Positions 1 through 58,252 of a DNA stretch of 64,000 bases are shown piece by piece. The number at the start of each line of letters is the position of its first letter. Positions within the stretch are counted from its first letter, which is position 1. The notes below the pieces were generated by a model that had not been told where the DNA came from, did not search any database, and was given only the letters and a program-made list of their open reading frames with translations. The translations under genes were made by a program, and so were the position numbers. The DNA comes from Amoebophrya sp. A120. Its lineage: Eukaryota; Protista; Dinoflagellata. Location: assembly GCA_905178155.1 (NCBI GenBank), contig CAJINV010000004.1:8145239-8209238 (forward strand). Reading direction: 5' to 3'.

Positions 1-3000
1 TTGCAATGCATAGACCCAACGGCGAATCTGCTCGCCCCGTTACAAGAGCTGTTGGACTCGGGGAAAGTGCAGTGGCGACAGACGATCGAGGGCGAGATCT
101 GCGACCAAAGGGAGTACTTGCTGATGTCGGACGATAAAAATTCTATCACAGACGACAACCATGGCAGCAACAGCAACACCACAAAGTCTTTTTTAGAAAA
201 AAACGACAACACCTGCAATTTGGTTCAGATCCAAGACTACAAAACGTCATTGAACAAGCTCCCGACGAACCAGACCTTCGACATTTTACTTGCCGATTTC
301 CGCTACACGAACTGCGAAGAAGAGCTAGCTGTTATCGTAAGGAAAAATCCCCCCTCCCCATCTTGAAAAGAAAATTTGTGATGCTGATTTGTGACCACAA
401 ATCAGCTTTGTCTTGCGTACAAGGCAAACGGCACCCATGTGGCGCATTGGAAAGCGAGTCTGTCATCCGTTTTCGCCTATGGCAGACTTGTTTCCCATGC
501 TCATCTGCTAGCCGGGTGAGTAGTCACATGGGCTCAGAATCTGCCGGCAACCTGTTGCTGCAATACAAAGCTCATTTGTGTACACAAATCCAGCAACACA
601 AATTGTCTTTTGAATATGAGGTGGAGCTTTTTTCACTTTGATAGCCGCCCTCGCCTCCCGCTGCCACGGAGTTCTACTGCTCGCGACGCTGCATATCAAA
701 TGCAAATATGTCTGGGTCTGGAAACTTGTGATGCTAAAACGTGGATGATAGAAACAGTCCCGAATGCAACCCAGCATGACAACTTTCTAGAACGCTTTCT
801 CATAGGAAATCCGCATGAGAAACTGCGTTTTTGTATGTACAAAAGAGGCCGCGACTTTTGCTGGTTACGCAATACAGATTTCCTAGGTATCGAAAGCAAG
901 CATTACAAGTTCCAACCCTCCAGACCCAGACATATTTGCATTTGATACTGCACAAAGTCGAGCAGCTCCCCGGGTTCGAAAAGTCGGATTTGCTGGACAG
1001 CGTCCGCGCGGAGGCCCTCGGTTTTTTCACCTCCAATGGCGACCGGGAGCCGGAAAGGACGAAATCTATCAAATGCAAAAATGTCTGGGTCTGGGAGATC
1101 GCGAGACTTGTCATGCTACTCTGGCATGACACTGGAATCTGTGTTGCGTAGCCGCATAGAGCTCCTCTTCCTTGTCATGCAAAAACGCAGTTTCTCATGC
1201 GGAGGACGCAATTCAGAACCACGAAAAAACTTGTCATGCTTGGCAGCGCATTACAGCGTGCTCGCTATTCCTTTCCTTGCATCACAAGTTTCAAGACCCA
1301 GACATATTTGCAATGCATAAAGTCCCATTGGAGACGAATGCGGGCGAAGGGGGTGGCGCACTTGGAGAAGCAAACGATCCACAAACACCAGTTTTTCCGC
1401 AGTTACCTTTATCAAATGCAAATATGTCTGGTTCTGGAAGGGTGTAAGTTGTAATGCTGCATTTGGATTCCAAAAAAAATCTGTGTTGCAGGAATAGCAA
1501 AAGGGGTGCGTTTTTTGCCACGCGGAGGGAGTATTTCTCATGCAGTATGGGCATCAGAAAGCCGTCACAATATCTGTGACGCTAGGGCATGCATCACAGA
1601 CATCGCCGGTGATACAAAATGTGCATGACAAACTTCCAGACCCAGACATGTTTGCAAGGTCAGTTCAAATTTCAGTACATAGTTCCTCTCATGCTCCATG
1701 TCATAAATGCTTCCCGATAAATCGATGATCTAGTAGTACTTTACTTTATTTACCTATAGCTCATGATGATTCTTACCCGAATGCTATAATAGTTGTTAAT
1801 CTAGTTTTTAATGCGCATTTGGGGGAAGGGTCATGAACGGTAGTAGTGTCAGCGAATAGTAGTGAGCATGCACCCACGGTGTGCTATTCGCACGGCCATG
1901 GCACTACTGCGCGAGCACCCACAGGCTCCCAGGTGCCTAGCGCTTTGGCCAGCGTAGCACCTCGGTAGAGCTTGCGGGACCCCGTGGGCAGAAGTTCATA
2001 GCACCCAATTTGTACGTTGCGCAAGTGATATTATAAGTAGTAATAGTTAGTTCCACCGGTGGACATATTAGCATGCTTAATCTCTCTCTAAATAGTGCAA
2101 ACACGTAGTTCTCTTTTATTTTCTTTCTTCATAAAGTTCAAGTCGTTCTCTTCCCTGTGCTGTACCAAGGTCTTGTTTCCAGACAAAACACCAGACATGT
2201 TTGCAATGCATAACCTCTCTGTCTGGGCGAAACAAGAATTCGCGGAAACGATCAAAAAGAACTACTCCCCCACGACAGAGGACAACTTCGACAGTTTGGT
2301 TCCCGACTTTGACAATGCAAATGACGAGTTATTCCTCTCCCGCCAGGGCTCGGCGGTTTCCGATTTGTACCGGGAAAAATCCGGGATGGTATCCGGAGGA
2401 AAAACGTCCCCACCCAGAGAGTCCTCAAGCTGGGGATTTTGCAGTACGCAAACCCACAGGATTTGGCTGTCGGGCATGACAAGTTTGGGTCTCTTGTGTA
2501 GATAGTCGTGGGTGGCTAGTTCTGAGGTCACATCACAAATCTAGCTCCTTATCCTGATTAGCGCAGGAGTCCTGCGCTAAAAAACATAGGAGTCATGCAT
2601 ATTTGGGACTTTGTCCTGCGGCAGGACAAAGTCCCAAATATGCATGACAATAAATCTGGGGTGGGGACGTAGTTTTTCCCAACGATAGGTGGCTGCTGCT
2701 GTTGGTCAACAAGTGAATCACAACCAGCAAACGACCGTGTACTACCAGGACGACAGCATTCTCGCCAGCTACTACGAGTTTCACTTTGGAAAAGTCCTCC
2801 CCCTCCGCGTCCCTAACTTCCCCGCGGCGACGTCTTCCTTTTGCTTGGAAATGTGCGAGAAATACGGTTCGAAATTGAATCTCGCGATGGACGCGGGTTG
2901 CGGGCCGGGGAGGTCGGCCTTTGAACTGCTTGCCGGAACAAGGGGTGGTGGAAACAGTGGCACCAACGGGTTTGCGAAGGTGGAAGCGTTCGATTACGCG

Positions 3001-4037
3001 GAAGGGTTTGTGGACATGCTGAAGCAGGAGCAGGCGAGGCTCGGTATTCCGGAAGAAAGATTGGCATCCTACCAGGGCGACGCGCATCTGTTGGCGGAGA
3101 TCTGCAAGAACCCGTATTGGATTTTTTTTTTGCTGTAAGTTTTCGGTAGGCTTTTTGTCTTTGTCATGCAAGAATTGCATGTTGGGTCGTCTTTCTGTTG
3201 CGGGAACTCCAATACACGTAAAAAAACAGCCTCGGCACCTACGATCTAGTCTCCGGCTGCAACTTGATTGACCGATTACACGATCCAATGCAGTATTTGC
3301 AAGCGTGCAAGAAGTTGGTGAATCCTGACAAAGGACTCATCATTCACTGCTCACCGTACACCTGTTATGCAAGCAGAGGAATAGGATTTTGTACCGGACT
3401 GTCCGGTACATTAGAGTAAAGAAAGAAATTGTCCGACAATTCCTTTCTTGACTTTGTCATGCATAAAACCATCGGCTTGCGACTTTGTTATGACGCAGTG
3501 ATCCGTGATACGCATTCTGTTTTCCAAAACTTCGTGGCAAAACGCATCACAATAAGACAATTTATGACGTCTCCGAACAAAATCCTCCCTCCCGCCCCCG
3601 TCATACTCCGAAGCCCGAGCATACGGAGATCGAGAAGTGGGTCGGCGGGAAATTCACGCCCCAGATGGAGAAGTTGTTCACCGAGCAGGCGTTGCAGGAG
3701 TTTATGGAGAAGGATAACGAATTTAAGCTTGTCGAAACCCGCAAGATCCCCTTTGTCATCCCCGATACGGATGGCTCATTTCAATATCGCAAGAAAAAAC
3801 TGCTTCACTGTAAACTTGTAATGCAGAAAATGGATCTGAGAAGTATCTGTCTTGGTACATATGCAAGACAATGGATTTTCACCTGTGTTTTTCATTAGGA
3901 ATCTCGCATGGCAAATTTTCTCGGTGCTGTAGAACAAACTTGTGATGCAAAACTTGCAAAACCCTTACAGTGTAACACTTTTTCCGTGCGATATTCAATT
4001 TACGTTCTCGAACGCCACGGTTTTTCAGCGGATATAG
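1..4037 (+). CDS. OvoA-like (ovothiol biosynthesis) protein, 3' part, with two tandem SAM-dependent methyltransferase domains; 5' end lies outside the window; 8 introns
   Basis: Joined exons read ...LQELLDSGKVQWRQTIEGEI...HQFFRSYLSVW (degenerate MTase). They continue YYQDDSILASYYEFHFG..VPNFP..MDAGCGPGRSAFEL..YQGDAHLL..YDLVSGCNLIDRLHDP..SPYTW.PEHTEIEKWVGG..IPFVIPDTDGSFQFTFSNATVFQRI*, matching the OvoA C-terminal 4-mercaptohistidine N-methyltransferase. There are 7 TIR introns and one GT-AG intron (3114-3229). Confidence 0.8.
333..643. mobile_element. Introner family B
   Basis: TATCGTAAGGAAAAATCCCCC...TTTGATA; DR gctgt/gccgc; frame restored. Confidence 0.8.
694..947. mobile_element. Introner family A
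   Basis: TATCAAATGCAAATATGTCTGGGTCTGG...CCAGACCCAGACATATTTGCATTTGATA; DR ctgca/ctgca. Confidence 0.95.
1067..1319. mobile_element. Introner family A
   Basis: Family A TIRs; DR aaatc/aagtc. Confidence 0.9.
1410..2212. mobile_element. Introner family A carrying a nested 533-bp insertion
   Basis: Left TIR at 1410, right end TGCATA at 2212; DR acctt/acctc; frame restored (RSYL-SVWAKQE). Confidence 0.85.
1658..2190. mobile_element. Insertion flanked by a 16-bp duplication, inside the right TIR of an introner
   Basis: CCAGACATGTTTGCAA at 1642-1657 and again at 2191-2206. Confidence 0.65.
2390..2687. mobile_element. Introner family C (internally rearranged, with two palindromes)
   Basis: TATCCGGAGGAAAAACGTCCCCACCCAGA...TCTGGGGTGGGGACGT..GATA; DR gatgg/ggtgg. 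Confidence 0.85.
3366..3605. mobile_element. Degenerate TIR intron (singleton)
   Basis: TATG..GGATTTTGT..CGGA / TCCGAACAAAATCC..CATA; DR degenerate (cctgt/ctccg); interrupts the conserved SPYTW motif. Confidence 0.7.
3785..3993. mobile_element. Introner family F
   Basis: TATCGCAAGAAAAAACTGCTTCACTGTAA...TTACAGTGTAACACTTTTTCCGTGCGATA; DR ttcaa/ttcaa. Confidence 0.9.
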
Positions 4038-5233
4038 ATTATCGTCGGTTTCGTGGTTTGTTTATTTAGTAATTACTTACGTATTTTCTGAGTTGAGTAT
4101 TGTGACTGCAATCGGCATCCTCCACGTCCTGCTGCTTGCGGCCTATGCTGGTATGGAACAGGAACTTTTTGGCCTCGACTCGTGTGCAGGAGTAGAATCT
4201 CTCGATTATGTGAATGTACTAAATGGTAGGAACGCATTTGTTTAGGAATTATGAAAAGAGCACAAATTTATACTTTTGCCTCCGTGGAAGAAAACTAGGA
4301 CGATCGTGCCTTGATGCACTGGATCGTTTTTTTTACCGCGATAGAATCCAGTTTCACTTCTTTTTTCCGACATGTTTTTTCCTCTCAATGATCGCACTAA
4401 ACAATATACTCACTGCCAAGTAATTATCCTCCGTCCTGCGCTTCGATATTAATAACTCTGATTGAATACCGTTTTCCATCGATAAGACTTAGATTATCCA
4501 ATCTCGATATTATTGGCCACCAGTTTTAGACTCCTCCAGGCAATAACGGCCTCGAGGTACGTAGTTGCGAAGGTACATATGTCCCTGTATACATGCGGTT
4601 GCAGGTCAATAACCGTTCAAAAAAACATAGGAAGTCATGGCTCGCAAGTCTAAAACGCAGGTGTAGTAACTTGTCATGCTGGGAAAATACTACAGCGGAC
4701 CGCCTGGTGTTGACTTCGGCATGGAACTTCAACGTCAAGGTAACTTCAAGTCGAATTTTTTCGTAGGGAAGATTGCTACTCTGAGATGAATTTGTGGTTG
4801 TGGGAACCGTCATTGGGGTATCTTTAACTTGTATCTCACTTCAACATACAAGATGTTTGATGAAAATCAAAACTCCTGTCCTATGCAGGAGCTTTCATCT
4901 CAGCACATATTTACTTCGTTGTTCCAAAATGCGACTCGGATGGTCGAGAAAATCTTTTCGTTCTTGGTTCGATTCACTGACAATTGAGATCACAAATGAA
5001 TTCGCTCTCCGTAAAGCTTTTCTGCTGCTGGGTTCCGAAAATAAATGCATCCATTTCAAAGACCGCCACACTCTCAACATCGATGTAAATGCGTAGCGCG
5101 TATAGATCGACCTTGCTATTCGCACCGGTTGTAAGGAGATCACGACGCATGATCTGTGATGCAAGTTCATGTGGTCCTTAGCATGCTGATTCGAAATGTT
5201 TTTGATATTTGCATTGCATGTTGGAACCTTTTC

Positions 5234-5255
5234 AACGTAGCCATTTTCGCCCAAG
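5234..5255 (+). other. Dinoflagellate spliced-leader-like sequence (relic or SL RNA exon)
   Basis: AACGTAGCCATTTTCGCCCAAG versus DinoSL DCCGTAGCCATTTTGGCTCAAG, 19/22 identical. Confidence 0.65.
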
Positions 5256-5283
5256 GCCCGCCAGGATTCAAGTCACAGAATCT

Positions 5284-5397
5284 CATCTATGATAGTTGCA
5301 ATCAATTTTAGTGGTATACCTAACTTAAGTACCTATCGCAGAGTCGCATCTACGATAGTTGCAATCAATTTTAGTGGTACACCTAACTTACGTACCC
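5284..5397. repeat. Tandem duplication, 63-bp period
   Basis: CATCTAYGATAGTTGCAATCAATTTTAGTGGTAYACCTAACTTA.GTACC at 5284 and 5347. Confidence 0.9.
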
Positions 5398-5582
5398 TGC
5401 TCGCTGGGGGAGCATATCCAATTCAACGCACAACGGGACGGCAAACCTCTTCAATTTGTAAAGCGCATTTCCTGTCAAACTCAAAGAGCTGCTACGCGTT
5501 CTATATCAGATCGAGGCGGCCTCGACCAATTTGCTTACTCCGTACGTATCTACAAGGTTCTTGATATTGTATATAAGTAATC

Positions 5583-8500
5583 ATGTGTGTGCCTTTCTAT
5601 CTATACTTTGTAAGTCCTATGGCGGTAGCCGCTTCCACCGTTTATGCTTCGGCGTCGGCTTTCCCTTGGGATGATCATGGCGGTGTGGAACCAGGCGAAG
5701 CCTTCGATTGTAACGCTGCGGCTTTTGCTGCGGGGAGCGTGCTACGGGAGTATCTGGTCCGCTTCACGACCAAGTCTTCAGCATCGTCGTCCTCGTCTAC
5801 TACTACTTTGACATCTTTCCCTTTTGTACAACAACTGGGGACCAGCTCCAGGCCCGTGACGTCAACACCCTCGACCCCCACTACACAATCTTCTATCGTA
5901 AGGAAAATAATTAAATCCCCCCTCCCCATATCGCAATTTCCTGATGCTGCAATTATTGGCCCAACAGACTAGACGTTTGCCATGCTCAGCGCCTAGCCCA
6001 AAACGACCTCTCTACTCCTCAGGCTTAGTATAGGCCTTTACTACTCTCCAGCAAGGCAAAAAATTTTGCGACAACGTTATATTTAATACAACTGCTGCGT
6101 CAGCAGGAGATGAAACTTCGTTTTGATAGTACGGGTAGGGGGGAGCGGGAAAAATTTTCCTTTTGATACTACCAAGAGCAGCTACCTTGGCATTTCTATC
6201 GCAGTCGCTGCCGCCTCAGCTCGTGGACGATCTCAACAACTATCCTGATTAAGAACGTACCCACACCAGAGTCAAGATGGGATTTTTGCAACACAAACCT
6301 AGGAGTTTTGGGAGTCACGCATAACAAGTTTCAGTCCGTAAGGTAGTGCAAGTTAGCAAGGAAAGCCGCATCACAAATCGATCTGCTGATCCTGTTTACA
6401 GCATTACAAGTTCCCAAACACGCTTGAAAATGCCTGTCATGGGGTTGCGCATCACAAATGTTCCTGTCATGGCAAATCTGCATGACAACTCTGGTGTGGG
6501 TACGTTTTTACTCAGGATAACAACCGTCCCTTGTTTAGGGAAGTCGGCACCTTCGCGGACCAGGACCGGACGTCGTATGCAAATGCTGGCGCTCACCAGG
6601 ACCAGGACCTAACCTCTATCGACGACCAACTCGCAGCTGAGACACTGGTGTTGCGAATGGGTGTTCTCGTCCGAGAAAAGCTGCCGAGTGTCCTCCTGTC
6701 CGCGAAGATATGGGGAACGTCGTGGTCGGGGGTGATTATAGAAGACGACTCTACGAGTGGAGAGGCGTCGGGAGACGAGAGCAGCCGCGGCCCTCGCGGT
6801 ATCGAAAGGAAAAATCCCTGACCCTCCCCATATCAAAACGGGATTTCTGATGCTGGATTTTTTGTGTACTACACAAATCAGCTTTGTGTTTGTACTTATT
6901 GTAGAGAGGCACTGCAGCCAGATCCCCCGGCTAGGCAGGGGCGCATGGGTCTAGTTTTTCAGCATGACAAACGGCTCCCCTTTGGGCCGAACAGCATGGA
7001 AAGTCGCTCTCTTAATGGGGCGGAAGGCTTCTGCCCTTGTCTTTCTGCAAGATAAACGCGATGTGTGGCCTCAAGTCAGCGAGGCAAATTTTCGGACACG
7101 GGACTTTCAAATATGGGGAGGGGGATTTTTTCTTACGATACGCGGCTTGCCATCTTCTGCAGGTGATTACGGTTGTGCCGCCGGTAATCCCCCCTCTCCA
7201 TATCGAAAACGAAATTTGTGATACTGTATTTGCGTACACAAATAATGCTAGAAGGCCAAGAAACGCAGCTGTGGCCGCCTCGTTTGCAGACAATTTGTCA
7301 TGCTGTTTCCCACTTCCAGCTGCCCCCTGTCATGCTGAAGATGCAAGGCTTTCCAACGCTAGTAACCCACCACAGTCCGCATCTTTTCCCTTTTAGCATG
7401 ACAAAGCTGATTTGTGGCCACATATCTGCATCACAAGTTTCTAGTTTGAGACAGGTAGTTCAAGTTCGCTACGGCGGGCCGCTTTGCTGTCCCCAGAGGA
7501 GACGTACCTCGACGTCAGTAGCATCCCCGAAATGCCTTTTGAACCGTCGTGCACGCGGCTGCTACACTGTCAAGAACGCGCCCGCCAGCACACAAATCAA
7601 CAAGCCGGTCAGGTTCAGGCGGTCGCTCTGGCGACGACCACCCGCCGCCGCACCGACGAGTACGAGCGAGACGAACACATCAGCAGGAGCAACATCACGC
7701 GCTCCGTCCGGCAAGTGCAGGTGCGGCCGCACGGGCGCCCGGGTAGTAGAAGTCGAAGGCGAACAAGCCTTCGCAATTCTAAAGCGGCCTTGGCAAATGC
7801 AATGCTTCGTGAGGTTGTGAGCGTTGTCGTGGGGGACGCGTGGGCCGCACTCAGTGTTGAGGCGACCAACCCTGTAACGCTTGAGGCCGTGGTCGGTTCG
7901 GCGCGGAAGCTGCGCGCATTTCTCCGGGCGGTGGCCGCGCTGTTCTTCACGGCCGAGTGGAGAGTCTCGATGCACCGCGGGACCCAAAAACAAGAACAAG
8001 AACAACGCAACATCCTAGACGACGCAGAAGTCCTTGCAGACCGCGTGAAGGCTGACCTCCTCGGCGCTCTTGCATTCGCAGACACGACGCTCGTTTTCAA
8101 CCCCGATAACAAGCTGACGCGAGGCATCCGCGGTCCGCAGAGATGGACCGGCTCAGCCACCAGAAGCGTTGTCTGGAAATACCAAAAATTGTTGAACAGG
8201 ACAGGCTATCAAGTGCAAATATGTCTGGGTCTGGAAGGATGCATGTTTGATGTTGTCATGCTTGATATCTAGCATGACTCTTCAATCTGTCCTGCGCGTT
8301 ACTTACTTACCCAAGAGCCCCATTTTGATCTTTCTGTCATAGAGAAATGCAGTCTGTCATGCAGAATAGGCAACACCTAGAACAAGCTCAGAAACTTGTC
8401 ATGCTGGGCCAGCACTTGTGGCTTCCTCATGATAAGGACCACGACACCCAGCATCACAAGTTTATTTTCCAGACCCAGACATTTTTGCATTTGATACAGG

Positions 8501-11500
8501 CCGCTCCGCTCCTTCGGGGAGCGGGCTCCCATGCTGGGCGACGGTTTCACAAGTCCAGGTGTGGGCGGCAGATTTCCGTCGGAGGTATTCACAGGCAGCG
8601 CTACGCGCTGCAGGAAGCTACGGACTATACGTTGCGCCACCTGATATTGTCCACGCGTGCGCGGCTAAAGATCCGGCATTCCGGCTGCGCTTTTCCGACG
8701 TCGGCCGTGCTGGAGAGCTGGTCCCAGGTCGCGCGGGTCCAGGTGGACCAGGGCCGCATTATCAAGTTGCCACCTTCTTGTTCGGCGCCGCAGCCGAGCA
8801 GCCGCTCAGCGTGAGCCACTTCACGCAGAGGTTGGCAAGGCTAGAGCGAGAAGAGGTAAAAAACCGCGCCGCGGTCCCCGGTCTGGTCGGCTCTTCGCCT
8901 ACTAGTACTTGTTCCGGCACAGCTTCTAGACGCTTACCAGGGCCGCCAGGGAGGTCGCGGAGGTCTCGGTCTCCCCAGCCGCGAAAGCGAAGCACAGAAG
9001 TGCTATCCTGTTGTAAAAACGCCCCCACCTCCCCAGAGTTGCATGCTGAAAATATTTCTCAACATGCGGAGCCCGCCCATGAGAGGCATTTATTTCTAGT
9101 CCTCGTGTTTCGGAATTTGTCATGCTCCAATCATCATGATTATATGCTAGATCTGTGATGCCGCTGAAGTAGCTAAACACAGAAACTACACTACGAGGCG
9201 AAACTTGTCATGCATAACCCCCAAGACTTGGAGATTTGTGTTGCAAATTTCCCATCTTGACTCTGGTGTGGGGACGTTTTTCCTCAGGATAAGTGCCTCA
9301 AGTTCTTCACCACCTCGCCGGAAAAGTGCTGAACACCTTCGCCCAACTCCTATGGATTGTAAAAATGTCTGGGTCTGGAAGATTGCGAGATTTGTCATGC
9401 ATATTTCGGATCACGCAAATGGCGTCTGATGCAGGCAAAAGCATCACAGGTTTTGCGCACGCCTCATGATGCCTGTAGTCCCGCATGAGAAACTTCCTAC
9501 TTGCGTGCCAAGAAATGGACAGCTCCTGGTGCTCATGCAACACAAATCCAGAGTTTGCATCACAACAGTAGTTCCAACCCTTCCAGACCCAGGCATTTTT
9601 ACATTTGATAACTCCGAGTGGAGTCTTACGTCCAGAGTGAGTGGTCCGAACTATCCTGGACGGAGAACCTTTCGCCAGGAGAGCGCGTGAAGGCTGCGAG
9701 AAAGGTTGAGGAGAATCTCGGGGGGCTGCTTCAGGCATACCTGGGAGATGAAAATGCTTCTGGATTCCTCGACGAGAAAAAAATCATGTACGGGCTGATC
9801 TACCTCGACCGAGTGCTCGACAAGTACCGATGTGATCTGACCGGAGACGACGATGACGAGGACAGCAGGGGTAGCACTTCTAGCAGGGATCCTCACGACG
9901 AGGCGGATCGTTTGCGCGAAGAGGAAGACATAGATATCAAAGGGATTGTAGCAAAGTCGGACGCCCGCATAAAAAAAGAGTTGGAAGCTAGAGGAGCAGC
10001 ATATGCAGCTGCACAACGTGAACTTGGAGAAGAGGAAGTAATGCGGGAAGTATCGTAAGAAAAAATCCCATATTTTTGAAAAGCTTTGTTTCCGAAGATT
10101 TGCGTTGCTCCTTTGAGGTCAGAATAAACCGCCTTTGTCTTGCAAGAAGACAAGGGCAAGTAGCAGCTTCCGCCCTATTCAGAAAGTGATTTGTCATGCT
10201 GTCCGGCCTGAAGGGGGGCCGTTTTCCATGCTGAACAACTAGACCCATCAGCTCTCACCTAGCCTGGGAACCTGGCCGCAATGCCTCTCTGCAGTACTAG
10301 TACAAAGCTGATTTGTGTACACAAATCCAGCAGCAGAAGTTCCGTTTTGATATAAAGAGGGGGGATTTTTGCTTTCGATAAGAAGTAGGAGGACTACATG
10401 CCCCCGGTGAAGCTGCTGCGCACGAGGGGGCCGCCGCCGCGTCTCGGCTGCAGACAGCACGGCAAGGTCTTGGGCTATCATTTGTAAAAACGTCCCCACG
10501 AGGACCCCAGAATCAAGTTGGGGAAGATTTTGCGACACAAACCTTGAAGTTTTGGGAACTACTACCACGCGTGACAAAGTGCAGGCTGTAGTGTAGTGCA
10601 GTTTAGCAAGGAAAGCCGCATAGCAAATCCATCTACTCATCCTGTTTACAGCATTACAAGTTCCAAAACACCATTGGAAATGCCTCTCATCATCAGGATG
10701 CGCATTACAAACGCTTTTGTGCTTGCAGACATCTCTGGGGTGGGGATGTTTTTACACAGGATTTGGGCGAGGTGATTTTTACACAGAAGATGGCCTCGAC
10801 GACGATGGTGCAGCCTCCGACATCTCGTCCTCTGCAGCGGCTAGTCACAGCGAAAAGCATGGAACTCTTGCTACCGTGCGGTTTCGGCAATTGGTCACAG
10901 ATTGGAGCCGCGCCTTTCCGCAGCGCGAACGGAGTGGGGCGACCCGCTGGACAGAAGTTCTTGTTGATGGTGTTCCTAGGACCACCACCACCTCCAGCAC
11001 TGCACGAGATGAGCCTGCTCCTCCTGGGAATACTCATGATCATGCTGATCGGGATCACGCTGCCAAGATGAAGAACATGGCGGGATCATTAGGCTTTCTG
11101 CTTTTGCCTCCAGGCTCTCGTGTCGTTGAGCCTGGACGAACTGCCGCGTTTGAAGCGGACGAACAAGTAGAGGGAAACCACGGCGAGCAGGATGTTGAAA
11201 CTACTAGCACGCGTCTAATGCGGGAGGGGCTAAACCACCCGACGGGCGGGGCCGGGGCCGTTGCGCGACGACCAGCACCTTCTGCCGACTACTCCGCTCG
11301 CCTGCTTCTGGACGTCAGAAGGCAGCTTCTAGGACTCCACCCTTCTCGTGCACCAGCGGGTCTCGAAGTAGAACAAGAACTACATGCTGAGACGTTGAGG
11401 GATCGAAAAAAGCCGCAGTCTGCGGGGGAAGAGTTCGGAATTGGAATTCTCCTGCATCCGGAGCTAGAAGTGGCTCTGCTGGCACTCAGTTTGGCCTTTC

Positions 11501-11844
11501 TTCCACTGGACGAAAGAGGCAGAATTCGTCAAACACCACTCGCCAGCTCTGCTTCGTCGGCCACCACCTCCACCTCGGCGGCCAGGTCGTTCTGGAAACA
11601 TGTATTTCTTTTCGACGCCGACGAGGACCTCGCGCGGGCGCAGAAATGGATGCTCCGGAAAATGGACCGGCTCAGTTTGCGATCTTTTAGTACCTTGCGG
11701 TCGCCAGTAGAGGAAGGCGTCGCTCTGGTTGCGCCAGTAGCGGTATCTGATCACGAATACACAGCCTACGAGGCCCTCTTCCGGGAGAGTCCTTTCCCAC
11801 GCATAGGGATGCGGGAGAGAGAGCTTGACGCGCAGGAGGTGTAG
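5583..11844 (+). CDS. Hypothetical protein, 9 introns (start may be the ATG at 5619)
   Basis: ORF pieces 5583, 6531, 7484, 8559, 9618 and 10717 join into one frame after removing 8 TIR elements (each with one DR) and a GT-AG intron ending at 7454; no domain recognised. Confidence 0.7.
5894..6168. mobile_element. Introner family B (degenerate)
   Basis: TATCGTAAGGAAAA..CCCCCCTCCCC...TTTTCCTTTTGATA; DR degenerate (tcttc/ctacc). Confidence 0.8.
6241..6519. mobile_element. Introner family C
   Basis: TATCCTGA..CCCACACCAGAGT...ACTCTGGTGTGGG..TCAGGATA; DR acaac/acaac. Confidence 0.95.
6800..7140. mobile_element. Introner family B
   Basis: Family B TIRs; DR cgcgg/cgcgg. Confidence 0.95.
7184..7454 (+). 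mobile_element. Truncated family B copy forming a GT-AG intron
   Basis: Family B body (AATCCCCCCTCTCCATATCGAAAACG...) lacking TAT/ATA ends; GTAAT...ACAG boundaries restore the frame. Confidence 0.65.
8207..8496. mobile_element. Introner family A
   Basis: Family A TIRs; DR caggc/caggc. Confidence 0.95.
9004..9291. mobile_element. Introner family C (opposite orientation to 6241)
   Basis: Family C TIRs; DR agtgc/agtgc. Confidence 0.95.
9351..9610. mobile_element. Introner family A
   Basis: Family A TIRs; DR actcc/actcc. Confidence 0.95.
10051..10380. mobile_element. Introner family B
   Basis: Family B TIRs; DR ggaag/agaag. Confidence 0.9.
10476..10763. mobile_element. Introner family C (right end ATT)
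   Basis: Family C TIRs; DR tgggc/tgggc. Confidence 0.9.
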
Positions 11845-12250
11845 CTGCAGTTGAGCTGCGAGGTCCTCGGGAGCGATGAACACGTTGAAATTTCGGAAAA
11901 GACAAATTTTACACCTGCCATGCACCGATTTTATTTTTAAAAAATACATTGTACAGACCTCGCCCTATTCTTATGTAAGAAAAAGCCACAAGATACAAAA
12001 AAATAAAGAGAAAATCAAAAAACACAAAAAAATATGTAGGGCTAGCAAAAAACATTGTTTGTTTGTTGCGAGTGGTCACATGGAACCGGTTGAAAGAAAT
12101 TCTTTCTTCTCATGTGTCTAGCGCTATTTCAATAAAAACACAACCTGGCGGAGCTGCTTTGGCACCCGTCTTAGAAAAACTGACTTCTGCTGAGAACCTT
12201 AAACTCCAGGAAAAAATAAGCTAAAACAAACTGAAGGCTCTCGAAAAGGG

Positions 12251-12735
12251 AAAAAGATAAAAGCGGTCGTAACTCAAAAACGTGTTTTTCAGAAAAAGAT
12301 AAAAGCGGTCGTAAAGCAAAAAACATAAAAACAAGGAGAAAGAGCACAAAGCGGCCCGTGCTCAGCAAAAAAATAAGATAACAAAAAACACAAAAAAATA
12401 TATAGGGTCGTAGCCAAATAAACATAAAAGCAGCACAGTGCGGCCCGTGCTGATAAAAAAGTAAAAAACATTAAAAAGCGGCTCTGATAGTATTTGTTTT
12501 CGTAAGTAAAAGTCAGCTAGCGGAATTTAGTCTAAGAGCTGCGTCTCCGTGCTGAAATTCGGGCTTATTTGTCGGCGAAAAATCTACCACATCACTTCTC
12601 TGGGATGTTAGCGCGCTATTTTAGACCATCACTCTTGAGTTTTGGACTTTTTTAGACGGCTAGCGTCGATCGTGCTATTTGAGGCCATTGCTTCCATGTT
12701 TTGGGTCTTTTTTAGACGACTAGCGTCGATCGTAG
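12251..12735. repeat. A-rich intergenic region with short direct repeats
   Basis: AAAAGATAAAAGCGGTCGTAA twice, GCGGCCCGTGCT twice, and TTTTTTAGACG.CTAGCGTCGATCGT twice. Confidence 0.75.
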
Positions 12736-15700
12736 CGTTTATAGCTTTATGAAGTGCGTTTTCGTATGAGAGTCGGGCGTTTTCGCAGCGACAGCTCCTC
12801 GTAACTTTAGAAAGCTAAGAGACCGCTCGATGTTCCGTATTTGGGTCGTGCGACACAAAAGAAAAGCGAACTGAGAGCACCGACGAACTTTTATGCGGGC
12901 CGTATCACAATTTTCTTTCCGCTGAACACACAACAGCGAGCGTTTTGAAGAAAAAAGCGGATGCTCATTCACACTTTCACCAATGAAAAACCGACAATAG
13001 CCACAGCGAAGCTGTTACTTGAAAACTGTACTTGACGAGCGAAAAAACTATAAAAACACACGGAAGAGTCCACATTTTGGCGGGCGCAGACATCTTGTTC
13101 TCACACCACCATCGTCGGATCCATCGCGTTTTGCGGTCGTCGTTTTCGTCGGCGTCAGGCGAGTTTCCACATTCGATCTCTTCTATCTTCGGTCCCACTT
13201 TGTTCCATCGGAACAATCAAGGCACAGTAGGCCCACGCTGGATCTCCCTTCTTCTTCTTCAGAGACGTCGGGAATTCAAAGGCGATTTCACGAGAGGCTC
13301 TTCTTTCTTCTTCAAACTTGATTCATTTCACAAGTGGCGAACCCCGAAGAACGCTGGCACAGGGTGGGTAATGTTTGTTCTGTTTGGGAAATAAATACGA
13401 AGCCGACCGACCAACCCACACTGCATTTTTAACGCCTACAGTCCCACGCCTATTGGAAAATACATACTTTGACCCGCGATGCGCATTACACTTTCTTCAT
13501 AAAGCTGGCCCGTTTTATTTTCGTCACAATTCCTACATAAAGAGCAACATGCGGAGCAGTCGCAGGTCCAGTTTTTCAACGTTCTTTCGCAAATTGTAAA
13601 GAGGACTTCTTATTGAAGTAGCGCGAAATTAGTAAAAAGGAGAGTAAACGCGTTCCCGCCTTGACGCACGATTACAAACAAATAGAAATTCAGATTTACT
13701 CCATTCCTGTGGGGAACGAACTTGCAATAGTACAAATTATCACCCGCCCCTTAACGATTCTTGGGGTTTTGCTGACCAATATGTGTCTGCAATTGCATCT
13801 TGAGAATTTTACGTCAACGGAAGTTATTGCCTGCGTTTTGATTTTGTTTTGGAACAACACGCATGAAGGTGTTGCTTCGTAAACTGCTCCATGAATTTAC
13901 AATGAGTTTGCTTTTCTTTACTTGAAACGCAAGGACAAGTTTGTCCTGCAGTTTGCCAAACTAAGATATCACTATTTTTTTTTACTGACCAGCAGAGGAG
14001 TTCTAGGCGTACAGCTGACAGATTCGGATCAGTATCCTCGGCACGTACGGACAAGCTGGAAGCTATTCGTCACCATACCACAGAAGGCGCTCTTCAAATC
14101 CATTTTCGCGCGCGCGAAAGGAAAAGAGGATGGCTGTCTGCCATTTTGTGCTGTTTGTCATGCATAAATTGCATCTCATGGCACCAAATCAAGTTTATTT
14201 ATCACGTGTCTAATTCTGTGCGCTAGCATTCGTGTACTTGTATGACCCACTACTTCTACTTAGTGCTATTACTATAAAGGTTTTCCAAACTACTAATGCT
14301 ACAGTGCTTCTTTCAAACTTCCTCTTGGGATTTTAGTTTTCAATAAGTATAAGGTTTTCCAACCTCCGCGTCGCTGTCGTAGCCACACCGATCGGACGAG
14401 GTGGATACCGCGTCGGCATGCCTAGGGGCGTGGGACAGGAAAACGGATAGAATCCTTGCCCTACTTTTTCTAGATATGTCGTTCATTTGTGGTTCAATCT
14501 GATGACCTCGAAAGCAGTCGCTCCGATGGCATTTCGTTGCATCGTCGCGACTAGGGGCGTGCGTGCATAATGGCATCGGAATCGGATCGAACTGCGGCCA
14601 CAAAAGAGCTCGCGCTTTGTAGAGCTTTTCTACTGGCTCGAGGTCTCTTTCAAGTTCTCACCTCACCAATAAATCGGGGGGGGTGGGGGGTCTTCGAGTT
14701 TTTAATCTTACCACGACGACATCACCGTGTAGAGCTGGGTGACATTTTACTGAATGAGCGACGTAGAATTCAACCACATTTTACGCCGCACTAAAAACAA
14801 TTTGGTAGATTGAGTCGGCTACGACAAACCACAACGCATCAAAGCGGTTTTATTTATACAGTGAAAAAATTATAACAACCATACTACTTAGAAATAAACA
14901 GGCATAAAACTAGAAATACACCAACAAAAAAGAGAACGAAAACTCAACTCATGCGCAAGATGCCAGCGGGGAGAAGCCTTGAGTCGTACCAAGACGAGCG
15001 GAACAGGGAAAGAAGCAGAAATTAACCCAGGCCAGCAGCTCTGACGCTAAGAAATTGCAGACCTCGTAAACGCATCGAGGTCAGAAAGCCGCGACCGCTT
15101 GCAGCAACTTTGTTTTCTCGGGCACTGTATGATGACAAGAGTAGACGGCGCCATTCGCCATGCATAACGCAAGGTGGTGCAACCGTGCTAGCATGCATCG
15201 CAGACACCAGGATATTAGCGCTTCTCATGAAAAGACTTCTCCCGACAAGACAACGTCCAGACAGCGTGAAACAGCAAGAAGCATCTGCGGAGGTCTTTGG
15301 GTGTTTGTTTAGTCGATACACAGGGCCACAGGTGAGCGTGCATGCCCCAAGCGGACATTGACAGGGAGAGTGTGCAGGTCGATGAAAAAAGTCTGGGGAT
15401 CATCAACACAATGTCAGCCCCTGATCAAGAAGCTATCGCCAAAACGTTCTCAGCAGTCGGGGCCCAACTCGGTATACAACCAGCCACGGCCCCGTGATTT
15501 CTCGGTGCACGGAAAGGAAAAGCCAAGCAGTTCCAGTGCACGAAGCAGAAAAGTGAGCAGCTTTCTGAACTACTTTCTAATGAATCCAAAAGGAGAAATA
15601 AAAAGTAAAAGCCTTGAACTGCTTCTAGAACGTCAGAGTTTCAAGACGTTGCATGAGATGAACTGTACCCTACAGAAGAACGCTGGCGCTTCATATTCGT

Positions 15701-16051
15701 AATGCGAGAATAAGAAAGCAGGGAAACCTGTCACGGAAGAGCCCAAAGCATGCAGCTTCGTGCATGCAAGACAGTTCGCTTGCTGGCGTACTTGTTCATT
15801 TTTGCATATACGAATGCGACACACTCTCTTTTTCTGTGTGATAAATTTCTGTGAGTGAATGCAAAATACCACTACAACGCTTCCGGACAGGCGCGAGCAT
15901 CTTAGCATACAAAATAAGCAATTCCGATTGCGGTCTTGTTGCACAACCCAATAATGTCATTACTTAGTTACGATCGGGGTCTCATTACTTGCGCAATTTT
16001 TACCAATGATGGTGATGCTGATTTTGCAGCAATTGAACTGCTATGTACGTA

Positions 16052-16450
16052 CCGTCCGGAGTGCGGTTGAAAGATGAGAGAATGAAAAGTGGCTGTTCAG
16101 AGCTGGAAGGCGTTTCACCGTGTCCTCTCGGAGCGATTTGATAACGCGTGAAGCTTCCGCTTACGATCACAAACTCTGTTTGTTTTCGAGAAAGAACTAC
16201 AGTGTCACTCTTATTGAAAAACAGACAGTCGCGAAGGTAAGTAGGTTCAACAGATGCAAATACTTCAATAGGTTGTGACCACCAAGAAACTGCACAACAA
16301 GCAACCATGCCCACCTTTGCGGCACAGCATCTGGCCAGCGTGGCTGCTCCAACTGTTGGAACCACATTGGGTGCTACGCAAATACCAGCGACGGTGGGTC
16401 CTCGTGGCACCAACCCCTCAACCTCCGCAGGTCTCGTCCCTGCTTCCACT
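16052..16450 (+). repeat. Diverged duplicate of 18339-18708 (truncated paralog 5' end)
   Basis: Shares CACAGCATCTGGCCAGCGTGGCTGCTCCA and CAACCTCCGCAGGTCTCGTCCCTGCTTCCAC plus upstream sequence; this copy stops after ...GLVPASTL. Confidence 0.75.
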
Positions 16451-18170
16451 CTATAGCACTTAGCCGCACTGGAGCTCGTGCATGAGAGAGCCATAAAGGG
16501 CACAGTTAGAGTACATTACCTTCAGTACCCAAGGTACGATTTTTTTTCAAAAATGCCCGGGTTATCGCAGCATCTTAATGAATACGTCGCGACCTGGTCG
16601 ACGGGGCGGTTTCGACAAGTAAATTTGCGGGTGCTCGAGCTCGTGCTTCAGGCATGCATGACAAAGATGCTTTTCAATTTCATCATGCAAAAACATCTCG
16701 CTTCTGCATGGAGAAAAACGCAACAGGTCCGAAGACAACCAGTTTCGTCGAATGGAATGGAGAAAATGCACCAAGTTCTGCGATGAATTCGCCATTTCTA
16801 CACGCACCGGAACGGGGTGTTGCTAATTATGCTGAGTCGCTACCGTTTCGCCGACCAGGACCCGATTACCCGATTCCAGCAAGGACTAGTACAAAGCGGC
16901 AGCTTGCGACGCCGTCAAGTTCGAGTTCAAGTCGGGTCTCAAGTTTTGCTAATACCGACAGCGGGCAAGGGTTGTCGGCAGTGACCGGCGCGGACAAGAG
17001 AGTGACAGCAGGTACAGGTGGTTTTGTGTTGTGGTCCGTGCATGAGCTCGTTTTGTATGTGGAAACATCCAAGGCCTTCGGCGCTGTTGAGAACCGAACC
17101 GAAACTCTAAAAAAAAAACAGGTGCGGGGAGATCGAGGAATACAGTGGCGTCGCATGGAACGCAAACAAGTGGTGGTACCGCAGCAGTGGACGCAACTAG
17201 CTTCAGATGGGGGTTTCCCTTCTTACGATCGAGTATCAAACGAAAATCATAGATATGTTCTTTGATTGTTTTTGATGACAATAGCAACACAGCCAATGTA
17301 TCAGCATCAATCTTCTTCACAACCAATCGGAATTAATTGGAAATTTCCCATTCAAGTTAGTTGCACTTTTATGCGCACTGTAGCAAAACCCCAGAACTAC
17401 AAAATTGGTTGAAGTCGGTAACGACGCGTGGCATGGAGTATTCCATTGGTGCTGCCCCGTGTCGCTGTTGCATGCGTTTGCCTCGGGTGCATTTCAGTAG
17501 GCCTCATCACTCACGCTTCGAATTTTCACAAATCACAGGTAAACCGGCAAAACCTACTCCCCCGGAGGATCCGCCACTATCAGCATGAAAGGCGTTCACA
17601 GGAAAGGGGTTTGCGACGCATTTTTGCAATCGACAAGTGCATACAAACCTGAAGCCAGGATACACAAAGGAAAGACGCTTCTTCAAGAAACAAAACGACT
17701 CCCAGTTCAATATTTATGTGCGGCTAAAATGGTTCTCGGAAATGTAGTTAAGATGAATCCAGCTGAGTTGACAAATGATCTGGTAGTGAACATTTTTCCT
17801 GCTGAAACAGGAACATCGTCAAGATTGATGGAGACAAGTTGCTGTTCGGTGGCAGGGATTGTGCGCGAATCACAGACGTCAGTACGTGTCGTGCCTCTGG
17901 AAATGAAAACCCAACACCCGATGACGGGGCGGCGCCTGATGCTACCGGAGAAGTCCGCGACGTGCTGTGCGTGACGAAGCAGGAGGGGTGCGAAAATATA
18001 CAGCTTTTCAACGTGAACCTCTGTTGGAATGCAAAATCTAGGTGGGCAACAGTGTGAAGAGATCAAAAAACCAAACTCTCCACAGGGGTGAAGACGCTCT
18101 GGGCATATGCGAGCAGCCGGGACCACCACACGTCGCCAGCGAAGACCACATACCGACGCCAGCACCCGCT

Positions 18171-18217
18171 GCAGCCGAAGCACCGACAGCGACAGCCGAA
18201 GCACCGACAGCGACAGC
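18171..18217. repeat. 21-bp tandem repeat
   Basis: CAGCCGAAGCACCGACAGCGA, a little over 2 copies. Confidence 0.85.
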
Positions 18218-18575
18218 GGCAGTGCGGAGAAGTAATTTCGACCGAAACGGGCCACGAGCTCTTGCTGTCAAACCCGCGGTTGATGTGCGCTTCTTGCGAA
18301 CGATAGAGCTATTGCATCGAAGAAATTGTTAGGTCCGCACCGTCCCGCGGGCGTTTGAAAGGTGAGAGAGAAAGAGCGGAAAGTGGCTGCTCAGAGGAAG
18401 GCCTTCAACACGTCTCGGAGCGATACACCGCATGTAGTTTCTGACGACGATCGCAAACTTTGCTTCGTGCTTTTGAGGACGAGAAAATATCAATCTTATC
18501 GGAAAAGAGCACGTCGCGAAACTATGACATGCTGCAATGCACATGAATAGATTCTGACCAAATCGCACAATTATA

Positions 18576-19337
18576 ATGCCCGGCTTCGCAGCACAGCATC
18601 TGGCCAGCGTGGCTGCTCCAGCTGTTGGAACATTGAGTACTCCGCAATTACCAGCGACGACGGGTGGCAGCAGCGCCTCAACCTCCGCAGGTCTCGTCCC
18701 TGCTTCCACGACCAGCCTTCCGGCCCCGTCGTACCCATCTCAGCCTGCAACCGCAGGTTCCCCCAACGTCGTACCCCCGTCCAACTTCCTCCTCCCGAGC
18801 AACGACACCCTAGTGCACACCAGCTCCCCGGAAATTCGCTGGGGCGGCAACAACTGCATGCTGGTCTGGAATCGCAATCACGATTTGCAGGACGAGTGCA
18901 ACAATCCCGGGTTGGGAAAGACCCCGCCGAACAAGGTGCTGTGCTACACGGAAAAAACAGTTGAAGACCCAAAGAACCAAGTTTTGAAAACGACCGCCAA
19001 GCTCGGAATCTGCACGAAAAGTTCCCACTTGTACAATTGCGATGTGGACTCTCCGTGGCAGATGGTCGGGAAGATCGACACGAATCCGGGCACGAAAATC
19101 TTCGACGACTTGCAACTAAAAGAGTTCGAAAACGACCCGGATCCGGAGATACCCTTGATTAACCAAAAGTACCACGAAACGGCAGAGAAACTGCTGGCGA
19201 AGCACAATAGGATCGCGGTCTCGGTGGAGAAAGCTTTCGGGGGGGAGAAGTTTTTCGCCGCCCCGGTCGCGGCGATTGATAATTTTTTGGACTTGCCAGG
19301 GAATAAACAGGGTGTGCAAAGTCAGAGTTTGTCGTGA
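18576..19337 (+). CDS. Hypothetical protein (253 aa; S/T/P-rich N-terminus, Cys-containing domain)
   Basis: Uninterrupted ORF with GC-ending codon bias like the neighbouring genes. Confidence 0.6.
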   Translation: MPGFAAQHLASVAAPAVGTLSTPQLPATTGGSSASTSAGLVPASTTSLPAPSYPSQPATAGSPNVVPPSNFLLPSNDTLVHTSSPEIRWGGNNCMLVWNRNHDLQDECNNPGLGKTPPNKVLCYTEKTVEDPKNQVLKTTAKLGICTKSSHLYNCDVDSPWQMVGKIDTNPGTKIFDDLQLKEFENDPDPEIPLINQKYHETAEKLLAKHNRIAVSVEKAFGGEKFFAAPVAAIDNFLDLPGNKQGVQSQSLS

Positions 19338-20009
19338 AAAGAAACGTGACAGTGGATGGTGAATGTGAAGATGTGCTTGGAGACGCGCCTGAAGGAGATG
19401 CTGATCTAGATAAGTGCTGACGTTTCAAGAACGTTAGTTTCGAAAGTTTAAAAGTGTCTTCTGCGTACTTATTCTGGGTTCACCAGAACAAATAGTCGTG
19501 TAGCGCGATTCGTTTTCGTCAGTGTGTTCTAGCGGCCTAAAGTTCTGACAAGATCTTGATGGCCACGCGAATGAGAGCCGAAAATGCAACTTTGAGCAAC
19601 ATGGATGGCAAATGAGAGAACATCTCAACCTGGTTGCGTTCCGTTCCTGCGTCTCAGCTGTTCACTTTCAAGTAACAGAATAAGATGAAATTTGCCCTAT
19701 GCGTGAAATAAAACTGTCTATCAAGATGTAGCCGCCTGTCGTGGGTGGAAAAGCAGCTGTTACACACCATGCGGCTGCCGCGTCGGAGCAAGAAGCTTCC
19801 TTTGCCAGATATTATCTGGCAGAATCGCATTCTCTCTTCAAGCACGCCAGAGTAGTTCTGTATACAAGAGGAGCTTCTGCAGTACTTCGAGCACACGCAC
19901 TGCCTGGTGTGCACGGGAATTTGGAGACACGCCTGAAGAGGCCGGGCCGATTCTGCAGTAAGGACAACCTCCCGACCTTCCACGAGAAGCCCCACGACCA
20001 TCAAAAACC

Positions 20010-22117: not shown

Positions 22118-23333
22118 AAACGGAGAATTGTGAAAAAGGAGAATAAAATCATGCTGACCATTTTCAAAAATCTTCTAGCAGGAAATAATCATACGTCGGA
22201 GTACTACGTCGAACTACCCGGCAGAATCGCGCTCTCGACACTCGTAGAACCAACTCGTCAAAGATGGCAGTACAGAACATAATCCAAATGCATCTTTTCC
22301 ACCTCGAATGCGCACAATGAGCCTCGACGGGCTGTCGGAGAATCTTGTCGATGAAAAAAGACCGTCTTCGCATCGAGTACAACAAAACCGTTGAGTGATG
22401 AAGCGAGTTCAAGATAGTACATCTAGCTTCAACCTTTTCGGGCCGTTTTGATGCGTTGAGAGATAACACACATTCTTTCAAGAACGCCACTTCTTTCCGT
22501 TTGTACCAAATCTCGTCGTCGTTCCGTGGGATCAAACCAAAACCGAAACCTTCTTCATTTCAATGCTGAAATCTTTGTTCTCACAACTTTGCCTCTAACG
22601 TCGTAGATTTTTTTGACATAGGAAACAATCTCTGCAGCGTGGCAGAGAGGACATCAAGCTGCGAAAAGTAGTGCAGCTGAGCAGACGAGCCTCGCTGCTG
22701 TCTGGTGGGTCGCTGCGAGCATCTCGTGGTTTGACTGTCTCGCGGACTGCCGGTTGCAACTGCCCATCAAGTGGTGGAGACACGAACTCTGCAAAACGAA
22801 GGTCCAACCACGGAACAACCAACCAGGGTCTACTCCTCCCCAGCGTGCAGATGAAACAAGGACTGTAGCTGTGCTTTTACTATTCCACCAGTGGGTTTCT
22901 GGCGGCAGGCTTTCTCGTAGCGACAGCAAACCCGTGTTGCAGCCCACGGAGCACTACAAGGGTTGAGTGAACGGAGAAAGACGAACGGCGAGGTCTTGCT
23001 GTGCGAGCACGTGCGCGACTACTTACTTACTCGTCCGTGCACGACGACACAACCCTGCGCTTGTTCCAAACGCTTTCCCAACTTCCCCCGAAGGACCAAC
23101 TCCGTAGAAGCACCAACGAGCTTTCAAGAAGATTTTTTCCAGCGCCTCCGCCTCCGAGAGGAAGCAGTAATCAGTACCCAGTGGACGAGTTCTTTATTAC
23201 CCTGAAAAGACGAAGGTCGCGCGACCAACCTCAAGGCCGGTAGTTCGCTCTCCTGACAGAGCGGTTCCTCGTGGATTCTGACTTTTCTTCGGGTTTACGC
23301 TTCTAGCACGAGGACTACGTCGGCGCACACAAG

Positions 23334-43538: not shown

Positions 43539-43602
43539 CAATTTGAATTTGTAATGCATGTTTTCCATCTCAATTTGAATTTGTAATGCATGTTTTCCAT
43601 CT
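43539..43602. repeat. 32-bp perfect tandem duplication
   Basis: CAATTTGAATTTGTAATGCATGTTTTCCATCT twice. Confidence 0.9.
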
Positions 43603-43670
43603 GAATCGATCATGAATTATGCTTTCTTGATGCTAAAACAACAGGAACAAGTCGCGAATGTGGGAAAGGC

Positions 43671-58217: not shown

Positions 58218-58252
58218 TAGAATACCTGAGTCGGAGTCATGATAGAATACCT
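58203..58252. repeat. 25-bp tandem duplication spanning the stop codon
   Basis: GAGTCGGAGTCATGATAGAATACCT twice. Confidence 0.9.

What the first reader, a model, noticed from the sequence alone, without database searches (positions are those of the whole stretch)
6241..9291. The same element sits in either orientation within + strand genes
Seen: family C at 6241 and 9004, family D at 53578 and 55726, family F at 3785 and 55471, and family A at 45608 and 61286 lie in opposite orientations, all in + strand genes with the frame restored. Inference: the excision signals must be symmetric (TIR stem plus palindromic motif). There is no polarised branch point or pyrimidine tract, so every insertion is harmless.
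Basis: seen in the sequence. Interest (0 to 1): 0.7.

Follow-up and report, generated by a model that had tools for sequence, protein, structure and literature searches.

The report
Two-way introners in Amoebophrya A120
Genes of the marine parasite Amoebophrya A120 are interrupted by known transposon-like introns that face either way about equally often and are missing from the matching annotated proteins and a transcript-type contig; the cut likely falls one base before their TAT start and four bases after their ATA end, so it would follow the direction of transcription instead of being symmetric.

Summary
Observation confirmed. All four pairs are reverse-complement relatives. The window holds 55 elements with TAT…ATA inverted ends and a 5-nt target duplication. 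Removing element+5 nt opens + strand ORFs, one of 2394 aa across 21 elements. The result matches two public Amoebophrya A120 proteins with 0 differences and the gap lengths of a transcript-type contig for 8 of 8 elements. With loci from a second assembly, 11 of 11 families of 5 or more copies occur both ways, none off 50:50. These are the published A120 introner elements, and two-way introners are known elsewhere. The ends are symmetric, but the internal motif is one-sided in family C, and harmlessness is unproven. Six informative junctions together allow one register: the intron starts 1 nt before TAT and ends 4 nt after ATA. The inverted repeat would then supply the TAT of the local GTAT donor in either orientation, and the cut would follow transcription. 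That register rests on few sites and needs stranded RNA reads.

The parts
6241..6519 (+). Family C introner, 279 nt, direct repeat ACAAC/ACAAC; same orientation as 10476 and 47951
   Evidence: removal gives P0002 exactly
9004..9291 (-). Family C introner in the opposite orientation, 288 nt, AGTGC/AGTGC
   Evidence: removal gives P0001 exactly
10476..10763 (+). Family C introner (ends ATT), opposite to 9004 within the same annotated protein
3785..3993 (+). Family F introner, TTCAA/TTCAA, near the end of a methyltransferase gene
55471..55680 (-). Family F introner, opposite orientation, ACCAC/ATCAC; left copy kept at repeat position 2
53578..53884 (+). Family D introner, CAAAC/CAAAC
   Evidence: (contig piece starts at its boundary)
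55726..56033 (-). Family D introner, opposite orientation, CGAGC/CGAGC
45608..45869 (+). Family A introner, ATCGA/ATCGA
   Evidence: frame only
61286..61548 (-). Family A introner, opposite orientation, GGACC/GGACC, inside the third KH domain
3366..3605 (.). Degenerate TAT…ATA element, direct repeat 1 of 5 alike; inferred intron 3365-3609 fixes the register (1 nt before, 4 nt after)
   Evidence: free search of intron ends against ortholog P0003; W conserved in 9 of 9 homologues; weak end stem predicted
5894..6168 (.). Degenerate family-B-like element, repeat TCTTC/CTACC; annotation keeps the left copy at positions 1-4
54628..54939 (.). Introner with GTGCC/GTGCT; contig keeps the right copy at position 5
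5583..11844 (+). Host coding region with 8 elements. Public annotation gives two proteins (P0002 partial, 5583-6635; P0001, 7532-11841); one gene of 1184 aa from ATG 5619 is my inference
7184..7454 (+). GT..AG intron made of a decayed family-B element; donor ambiguous (7163, 7172, 7175 or 7184 are all in frame; 7175 was used in the model)
45294..58214 (+). 2394-aa ORF opened by removing 21 elements
   Evidence: contig evidence for 53884-58468
59398..63032 (+). KH-domain gene with 3 elements and 6 modelled GT-AG introns (5 of 6 start GTAT)
333..61755 (.). Further elements: 333-643, 694-947, 1067-1319, 1410-2212, 2390-2687, 6800-7140, 8207-8496, 9351-9610, 10051-10380, 20071-20338, 20568-20828, 23375-23699, 24921-25235, 29053-29305, 29652-29913, 30001-30263, 30701-30979, 31214-31442, 31504-31763, 36147-36400, 40159-40411, 40502-40793, 41137-41346, 42063-42317, 43671-43952, 45949-46255, 46686-46937, 47155-47417, 47951-48230, 49455-49733, 49796-49955, 51072-51335, 51403-51686, 52223-52502, 52793-53046, 53094-53354, 54208-54470, 56246-56462, 56549-56804, 57298-57653, 57719-57977, 60620-60898, 61593-61755 (55 in all, 15,319 nt, 23.9% of the window)

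Best explanation
These are Amoebophrya A120 introner elements, non-autonomous inverted-repeat elements with a 5-nt target duplication that sit in coding sequence in either orientation and are likely removed from the RNA by a spliceosome-type reaction that cuts 1 nt before the starting TAT and 4 nt after the final ATA. Shown: the structure, both orientations, and loss of element plus exactly 5 nt from the transcript-type contig and from annotated proteins. Inferred from six junctions: the single register. Inferred: because both ends read TAT inward, either orientation hands the transcript N-TAT, the local canonical donor GTAT with a relaxed first base. The 3' site has no fixed letters and would be measured from the paired ends. 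Orientation is therefore neutral while the cut follows transcription. Inferred: the internal TTGTVATGC motif, spaced at the DNA helical repeat, acts on DNA (mobilisation or packing) and is not the splice signal.
For: Element+5 removal: contig gaps skip 585, 1011 and 625 nt, equal to the sum of length+5 for 8 of 8 elements; element+2 would not fit. P0001 and P0002 show 0 differences over 943 and 151 aa across 7 elements. Orientation: 44/38, 19/25, 17/13, 11/16, 8/8 and six smaller families, n=236, summed chi-square p=0.89. In the window 20 of 24 and 21 of 24 lie in ORFs of 300 aa or more. Register, with k = bases kept of the left repeat: the contig gives k>=2 at three sites and k<=4 at one; P0002 gives k>=4 at 5894; a free 31x31x3 search at 3366 picks k=4, the only k giving the conserved W; one locus has a stop at k=5. 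Donor: 54 of 55 start N-TAT under k=4, and 6 of the 7 canonical donors with a fixed position start GTAT. All 9 commonest A120 splice pairs in Farhat's Table S4 start N-T. Repeat mismatches are fewer at position 4 than at mirror position 2 in transcript orientation (window 0 vs 8, loci 5 vs 14) and in both element orientations. A GT/GC..AG pair is reachable in only 3 of 52, and the target site shows no clear base preference. Motif spacing peaks at 10.4-10.6 bp over 41 families (null 4 of 500).
Against: No raw RNA read of this locus was seen. Run X3 is only guessed to be RNA and gives contigs, and the two raw RNA runs laid did not hold the locus. Only one site fixes k=4 outright, and it rests on homology at an old element; 5894 rests on an annotation. 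Eight of the 9 pairs in Table S4 end A-N, which k=4 does not predict, and Farhat describe splice sites as variable relative to the hairpin. A codon-usage test of which repeat copy is exonic was flat (35 vs 33). The position 2 vs 4 contrast was noticed in the window first and reaches only p=0.064 in the independent loci. G-U and A-C mismatches in the stem are equal (43 vs 49), so no selection for RNA pairing is shown. No branch-point consensus was found (CTRAC 0 of 48). Spliceosome involvement is untested, and U1 was not found in this genome.
Confidence: 0.65

Rival explanations
1. Symmetric, structure-guided excision: a non-spliceosomal nuclease and ligase, or the transposase itself, recognises the terminal RNA stem and makes a staggered cut in the direct repeats.
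For: End stems of about 25 pairs are predicted in 51 of 52 elements on the transcribed strand. No target base preference. U1 not detected in A120. Euglenid nonconventional introns have stem-paired ends with repeats at the junctions (review passage). A 1-before, 4-after cut could also be made on a stem.
Against: Stem positions 4-7 pair poorly (22-39 of 52) while TAT and AAA are near invariant. No G-U excess. The register gives N-TAT, matching the canonical donor. Canonical introns coexist in the same genes, and one decayed element has become a GT..AG intron.
Confidence: 0.22
2. Excision is exact in length, but the register floats inside the 5-nt repeat from site to site, set by matching of the two copies.
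For: Farhat place the inverted repeats 1-5 nt from the splice sites. Table S4 holds both N-T starts and A-N ends. The contig alone allows k=2-4.
Against: Elements whose repeats match at only 1 of 5 positions (5894, 3366) still fit exact removal, at k>=4 and k=4. Aligners cannot place a junction within a perfect repeat, which alone would make the published positions look variable (own knowledge).
Confidence: 0.1
3. The elements are removed from DNA (programmed elimination or fresh transposon excision), not from RNA.
For: TAT…ATA ends with a duplication resemble DNA excision substrates. The internal motif is phased like a DNA-binding array. Only 15 of about 1510 joints of the DNA run were shown, so an empty-site form is not excluded.
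Against: The DNA-type run covers the locus at flat depth (23-32) with contigs that run into the elements and 0 differences. Farhat validated such introns with RNA-seq against the genome. An asymmetric register that follows transcription is not expected of DNA excision.
Confidence: 0.03

Closest known systems
Introner elements (IEs) among the non-canonical introns of Amoebophrya sp. A120 (Farhat et al. 2021, PMC7789003)
   Same: Organism (public A120 proteins 100% identical), TAT + 7 nt + AAA inverted ends, 3-5 nt direct repeats, size near 240 nt, no splice dinucleotide signature, no coding capacity.
   Different: Not different in kind. The text and supplement that I searched say nothing on element orientation within genes and leave the border position unknown. 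The fixed register, the N-TAT donor reading and the 10.4-bp motif phasing are added here. Figures S19-S25 could not be seen and may already show some of this.
Two-way introners of Polarella glacialis and Aureococcus anophagefferens (bioRxiv 10.1101/2020.10.14.339549; Huff et al. 2016 as cited there and in PMC10228655)
   Same: DNA-transposon introns with target duplication that form introns in either orientation.
   Different: Those take G-type donors and AG acceptors from the element or the duplication, and the two-way classes 6, 8 and 10 are biased to one orientation. Here GT/GC..AG is reachable in 3 of 52, with no target preference and no orientation bias.
Euglenid nonconventional introns
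   Same: Non-canonical junctions, inverted-repeat stem set a few bases from the junction, duplication-like repeats, no pyrimidine tract (review PMC11282704).
   Different: Other lineage and consensus (CAG/CTG at +4..6 and -8..-6; pyrimidine|purine junctions). Not tested for common ancestry.
Fritillaria borealis non-canonical introns
   Same: MITE-derived, with inverted repeats and duplications, spliced by a modified spliceosome (review).
   Different: Those favour AG-AC and AG-AT ends and an exonic TAC. No such preference is seen here.

Membership tests
Amoebophrya A120 introner elements | Host is strain A120 | tested here: met
   P0001 and P0002, named A120 by their sources, are 100% identical to window exons
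Amoebophrya A120 introner elements | Inverted ends starting TAT, 7 nt, then AAA | tested here: met
   45 of 53 at the 5' end and 42 of 53 at the 3' end, strict
Amoebophrya A120 introner elements | Direct repeat of 3-5 nt at the borders | tested here: met
   5 nt: 35 of 53 exact in the window; 184 of 225 in further loci, other lengths 0-20
Amoebophrya A120 introner elements | Non-canonical introns removed from RNA | tested here: met
   8 of 8 skipped by a transcript-type contig; GT/GC..AG reachable in 3 of 52. Contigs only, and the run type is a guess
Amoebophrya A120 introner elements | Repeated in families across the genome | tested here: met
   6 families in the window; DNA-run depth of 10^4-10^5 over elements against about 28, with many foreign flanks
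Amoebophrya A120 introner elements | Assignment to one of the 1,954 published families | not testable with these tools
   family profiles are not in the supplement text
Aureococcus/Polarella-type two-way introners | Canonical or near-canonical splice sites taken from element or duplication | tested here: not met
   GN..AG reachable in 5 of 52; no target base preference
Aureococcus/Polarella-type two-way introners | Intron formation in either orientation | tested here: met
MITE of a named DNA-transposon superfamily | Cognate transposase with the same ends | not testable with these tools
   no whole genome held; Farhat found no transposase in A120; Gozashti 2025 assign A120 introners to diverse TIR elements
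Spliceosomal (U2-type) intron | Lariat at a branch adenosine, snRNP dependence | not testable with these tools
   no branch consensus found; no lariat data
Euglenid nonconventional introns | CAG/CTG stem consensus and pyrimidine|purine junctions | tested here: not met
   ends are TAT/ATA and junction bases show no preference

The most novel reading that the evidence does not exclude
A120 has a rewired spliceosome for which the transposon's own end is the whole intron signal. The donor is N|TAT (no G, no U1) and the acceptor is any four bases counted from the ATA end, so this element is removed exactly from any site in either orientation. Its interior carries a separate helically phased DNA code.
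Probability: 0.4. Interest if true: 0.75.

Novelty: already known. Interest (0 to 1): 0.47.

Why it matters
How A120 removes tens of thousands of introns that lack GT-AG ends, with no U1 found, is left open in the genome paper. A single register and an N-TAT donor would explain the missing splice signature, since the end letters come from the target site. They would also explain the lack of orientation bias, correct gene models at mismatched repeats, and turn the question into a direct test on existing RNA-seq. The elements themselves and two-way introners are already described.

Tried and rejected
No whole genome was held, so the genome-wide ratio was replaced by 130 loci of another public assembly. 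Of 319 elements, 99 had no host-strand call and were dropped; the calls needed an open frame after removal (window cross-check 33 of 33 called, 12 uncalled). The run search listed no holder on record as RNA, and raw RNA runs X9 and X10 did not hold the locus. No reads were obtained for 2200-11900, so retention by orientation and direct RNA proof for C6241, C9004 and F3785 stay open. A blind search for GT-AG models of the KH gene was uninformative: 239-14,047 solutions for any subset removed and 0 with none removed (one search timed out). The 1-of-54 fit used candidates filtered by GC step. The codon-usage test of the register was flat. G-U bias and strand difference in folding: none. Length+5 modulo 3 is even (97/79/97 of 273), so there is no selection for in-frame length. 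No homologue was found for 49946-51070. No Rfam match, no viral contig match. The first ortholog-guided intron search began out of frame and was redone. Ends of 1410, 10476, 20071 and 51403 were first set wrongly and then corrected; predates these fixes, and predate some. Huff et al. 2016 was not held. The transposon superfamily was not assigned (listing only). No earlier notes by place or sequence.
Full report
Observation. The four named pairs are real and lie on opposite strands. Every member begins TAT, ends ATA and is flanked by a 5-nt direct repeat. Thirty such structures with an exact repeat occur against a mean of 1.35 in 20 shuffles. After corrections the window holds 55 elements, 23.9% of its length. 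Six families were found among 52 of them, each in both orientations: 10/7, 3/7, 5/3, 3/3, 2/1, 1/1.

Frame. Removing an element plus 5 nt lengthens the stop-free frame across the junction on the + strand only; shifts of 1 or 2 nt abolish the effect (50 elements). Of 53 elements, 45 lie in + ORFs of at least 300 aa, 20 of 24 in one orientation and 21 of 24 in the other. The longest ORF is 2394 aa across 21 elements. In the finding's own region, removal of eight elements and one GT..AG intron gives 1184 aa from ATG 5619, and keeping or mis-cutting any one element truncates it.

Outside evidence. Two public proteins named Amoebophrya sp. A120 match this model with 0 differences: P0001 over residues 242-1184 and P0002 over 1-151. 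Farhat's gene models were built from transcript alignments. The stretch between the two proteins is my inference. A DNA-type run covers 44001-64000 at flat depth with contigs that run into the elements, and shows very high summed depth over them. A contig of run X3 (guessed to be RNA; a second contig breaks at GT..AG borders as mRNA should) skips 585, 1011 and 625 nt, exactly element+5 for 8 of 8 elements. F3785 removal restores a C-terminus that matches a transcript-derived ortholog from another Amoebophrya: score 260 against 217-220 for the alternatives. No reads were obtained for 2200-11900.

Orientation at larger scale. An end motif retrieved 130 loci (379 kb) of another public assembly with the same families. 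Of 319 elements, 220 were given a host strand by a codon model. With the window, all 11 families of five or more copies occur both ways and none departs from 50:50 (n=236, p=0.89). End logos are symmetric and the target site shows no clear base preference.

What is and is not symmetric. TAT and the AAA at positions 11-13 are near invariant at both ends, while positions 4-7 pair poorly. Predicted end stems are equal on both strands, with no G-U excess. The internal TTGTVATGC motif is not a universal two-ended signal: family C has it at both ends in 0 of 27 copies and carries it almost only on one strand (4 vs 121). Its spacing peaks at 10.4-10.6 bp, which suggests a role on DNA; family descent from a tandem unit of about 31 nt is not excluded. 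Because the left end is A-rich, the 3' end of the RNA is T-rich in both orientations, but 5 of 6 canonical introns lack a pyrimidine tract, and no branch consensus was found.

Where the cut falls. Where the two repeat copies differ, the kept copy brackets the junction. The contig requires k>=2 at 55471, 56549 and 57719 and k<=4 at 54628. P0002 requires k>=4 at 5894. At a degenerate element, 3366-3605, a free search of intron ends against the ortholog picks 3365-3609, which is k=4; only that k gives the tryptophan found in 9 of 9 homologues. Under one register, k=4: the intron begins 1 nt before TAT and ends 4 nt after ATA. Its 5' end then reads N-TAT in 54 of 55, and 6 of the 7 canonical donors with a fixed position read GTAT. 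For: all nine commonest A120 splice pairs start N-T, and mismatches are rarer at repeat position 4 than at position 2. Against: eight of those nine pairs end A-N, the codon-usage test was flat, the replication of the mismatch contrast is weak (p=0.064), and the sites are few.

Mechanism. The most likely reading is insertion by a DNA-transposon route with a 5-nt duplication (inferred from structure; no transposase at hand), then removal from RNA by a spliceosome that accepts any first base and no AG. The inverted repeat gives the donor in either orientation and probably positions the acceptor. A stem-cutting nuclease remains a live rival. DNA-level loss is unlikely.

Known systems. These are Farhat's A120 introner elements (PMC7789003; seen: abstract, passages, sections 10, 11, 12, 16, 25, 32, supplement text searches; figures not seen). 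Two-way intron formation is reported for Polarella and Aureococcus, with G-type and AG sites (bioRxiv 10.1101/2020.10.14.339549, passages; PMC10228655, one passage). PMC12130899 (passages) clusters introners only in matching orientation. PMC11282704 and PMC11453091 were seen as passages. I found no statement on orientation or on a fixed register for A120 in searches or in term searches; subscription papers and figures were out of reach. The name OvoA for the methyltransferase gene is recalled; the calls show only FGE-sulfatase and methyltransferase domains in its orthologs.

Verdict. 'Symmetric signals' holds for the DNA ends but probably not for the cut, and 'harmless' is unproven; IEs are reported to be rarer in core translation genes. 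The value lies in the testable register.

Noticed in passing
window 7184-7454: A GT..AG intron that is a decayed family-B element without its ends (best matches 54628, 45949, 23375): possible conversion of an introner into a canonical intron.
   Followed up: partly
window 1410-2212; L063:475-1011: An 803-nt composite element: a family A left part joined to about 550 nt that recurs at 88% identity in L063. It still fits exact removal.
   Followed up: partly
elements throughout; KH-gene introns 59995-62680: The TTGTVATGC motif occurs at 10.6 per kb in elements, 5.0 in seven GT-AG introns, 0.9 elsewhere and 0.2 in exons, and is phased at 10.4-10.6 bp.
   Followed up: partly
window, whole: Elements sit in GC-rich, exon-like DNA: 1 of 55 has flanks under 45% GC, against 24% of the background. 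None was found in 11850-19960.
   Followed up: partly
window 59995-62680, 3114-3229: Canonical introns have T-rich starts and A/C-rich ends finishing in CAG, mostly without a pyrimidine tract.
   Followed up: no
window 10476-10763, 51403-51686, 20071-20338: Three elements have an altered terminal triplet (ATT, ACA, TAA) yet fit exact removal; 10476 is confirmed by P0001.
   Followed up: partly
window 1-4035: 3' part of a gene whose orthologs carry FGE-sulfatase and methyltransferase domains; resembles ovothiol synthase OvoA (name recalled).
   Followed up: partly
window 20786-21562: P2X receptor-like domain (Pfam PF00864, E 2.6e-6).
   Followed up: no
window 51598-51655: Raw RNA run X10 does not hold this locus but has about 50 reads matching an element interior with element-like loose ends: a related strain may carry kin families.
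   Followed up: no
window and loci, direct repeats: Repeat mismatches fall on third codon positions twice as often (44 vs 22 and 21), and A-to-G and T-to-C differences from left to right copy are common. Unexplained.
   Followed up: no
window 16036-16449 and 18324-18709; 26194-26782; 5273-5396: Direct duplications unrelated to the elements.
   Followed up: no
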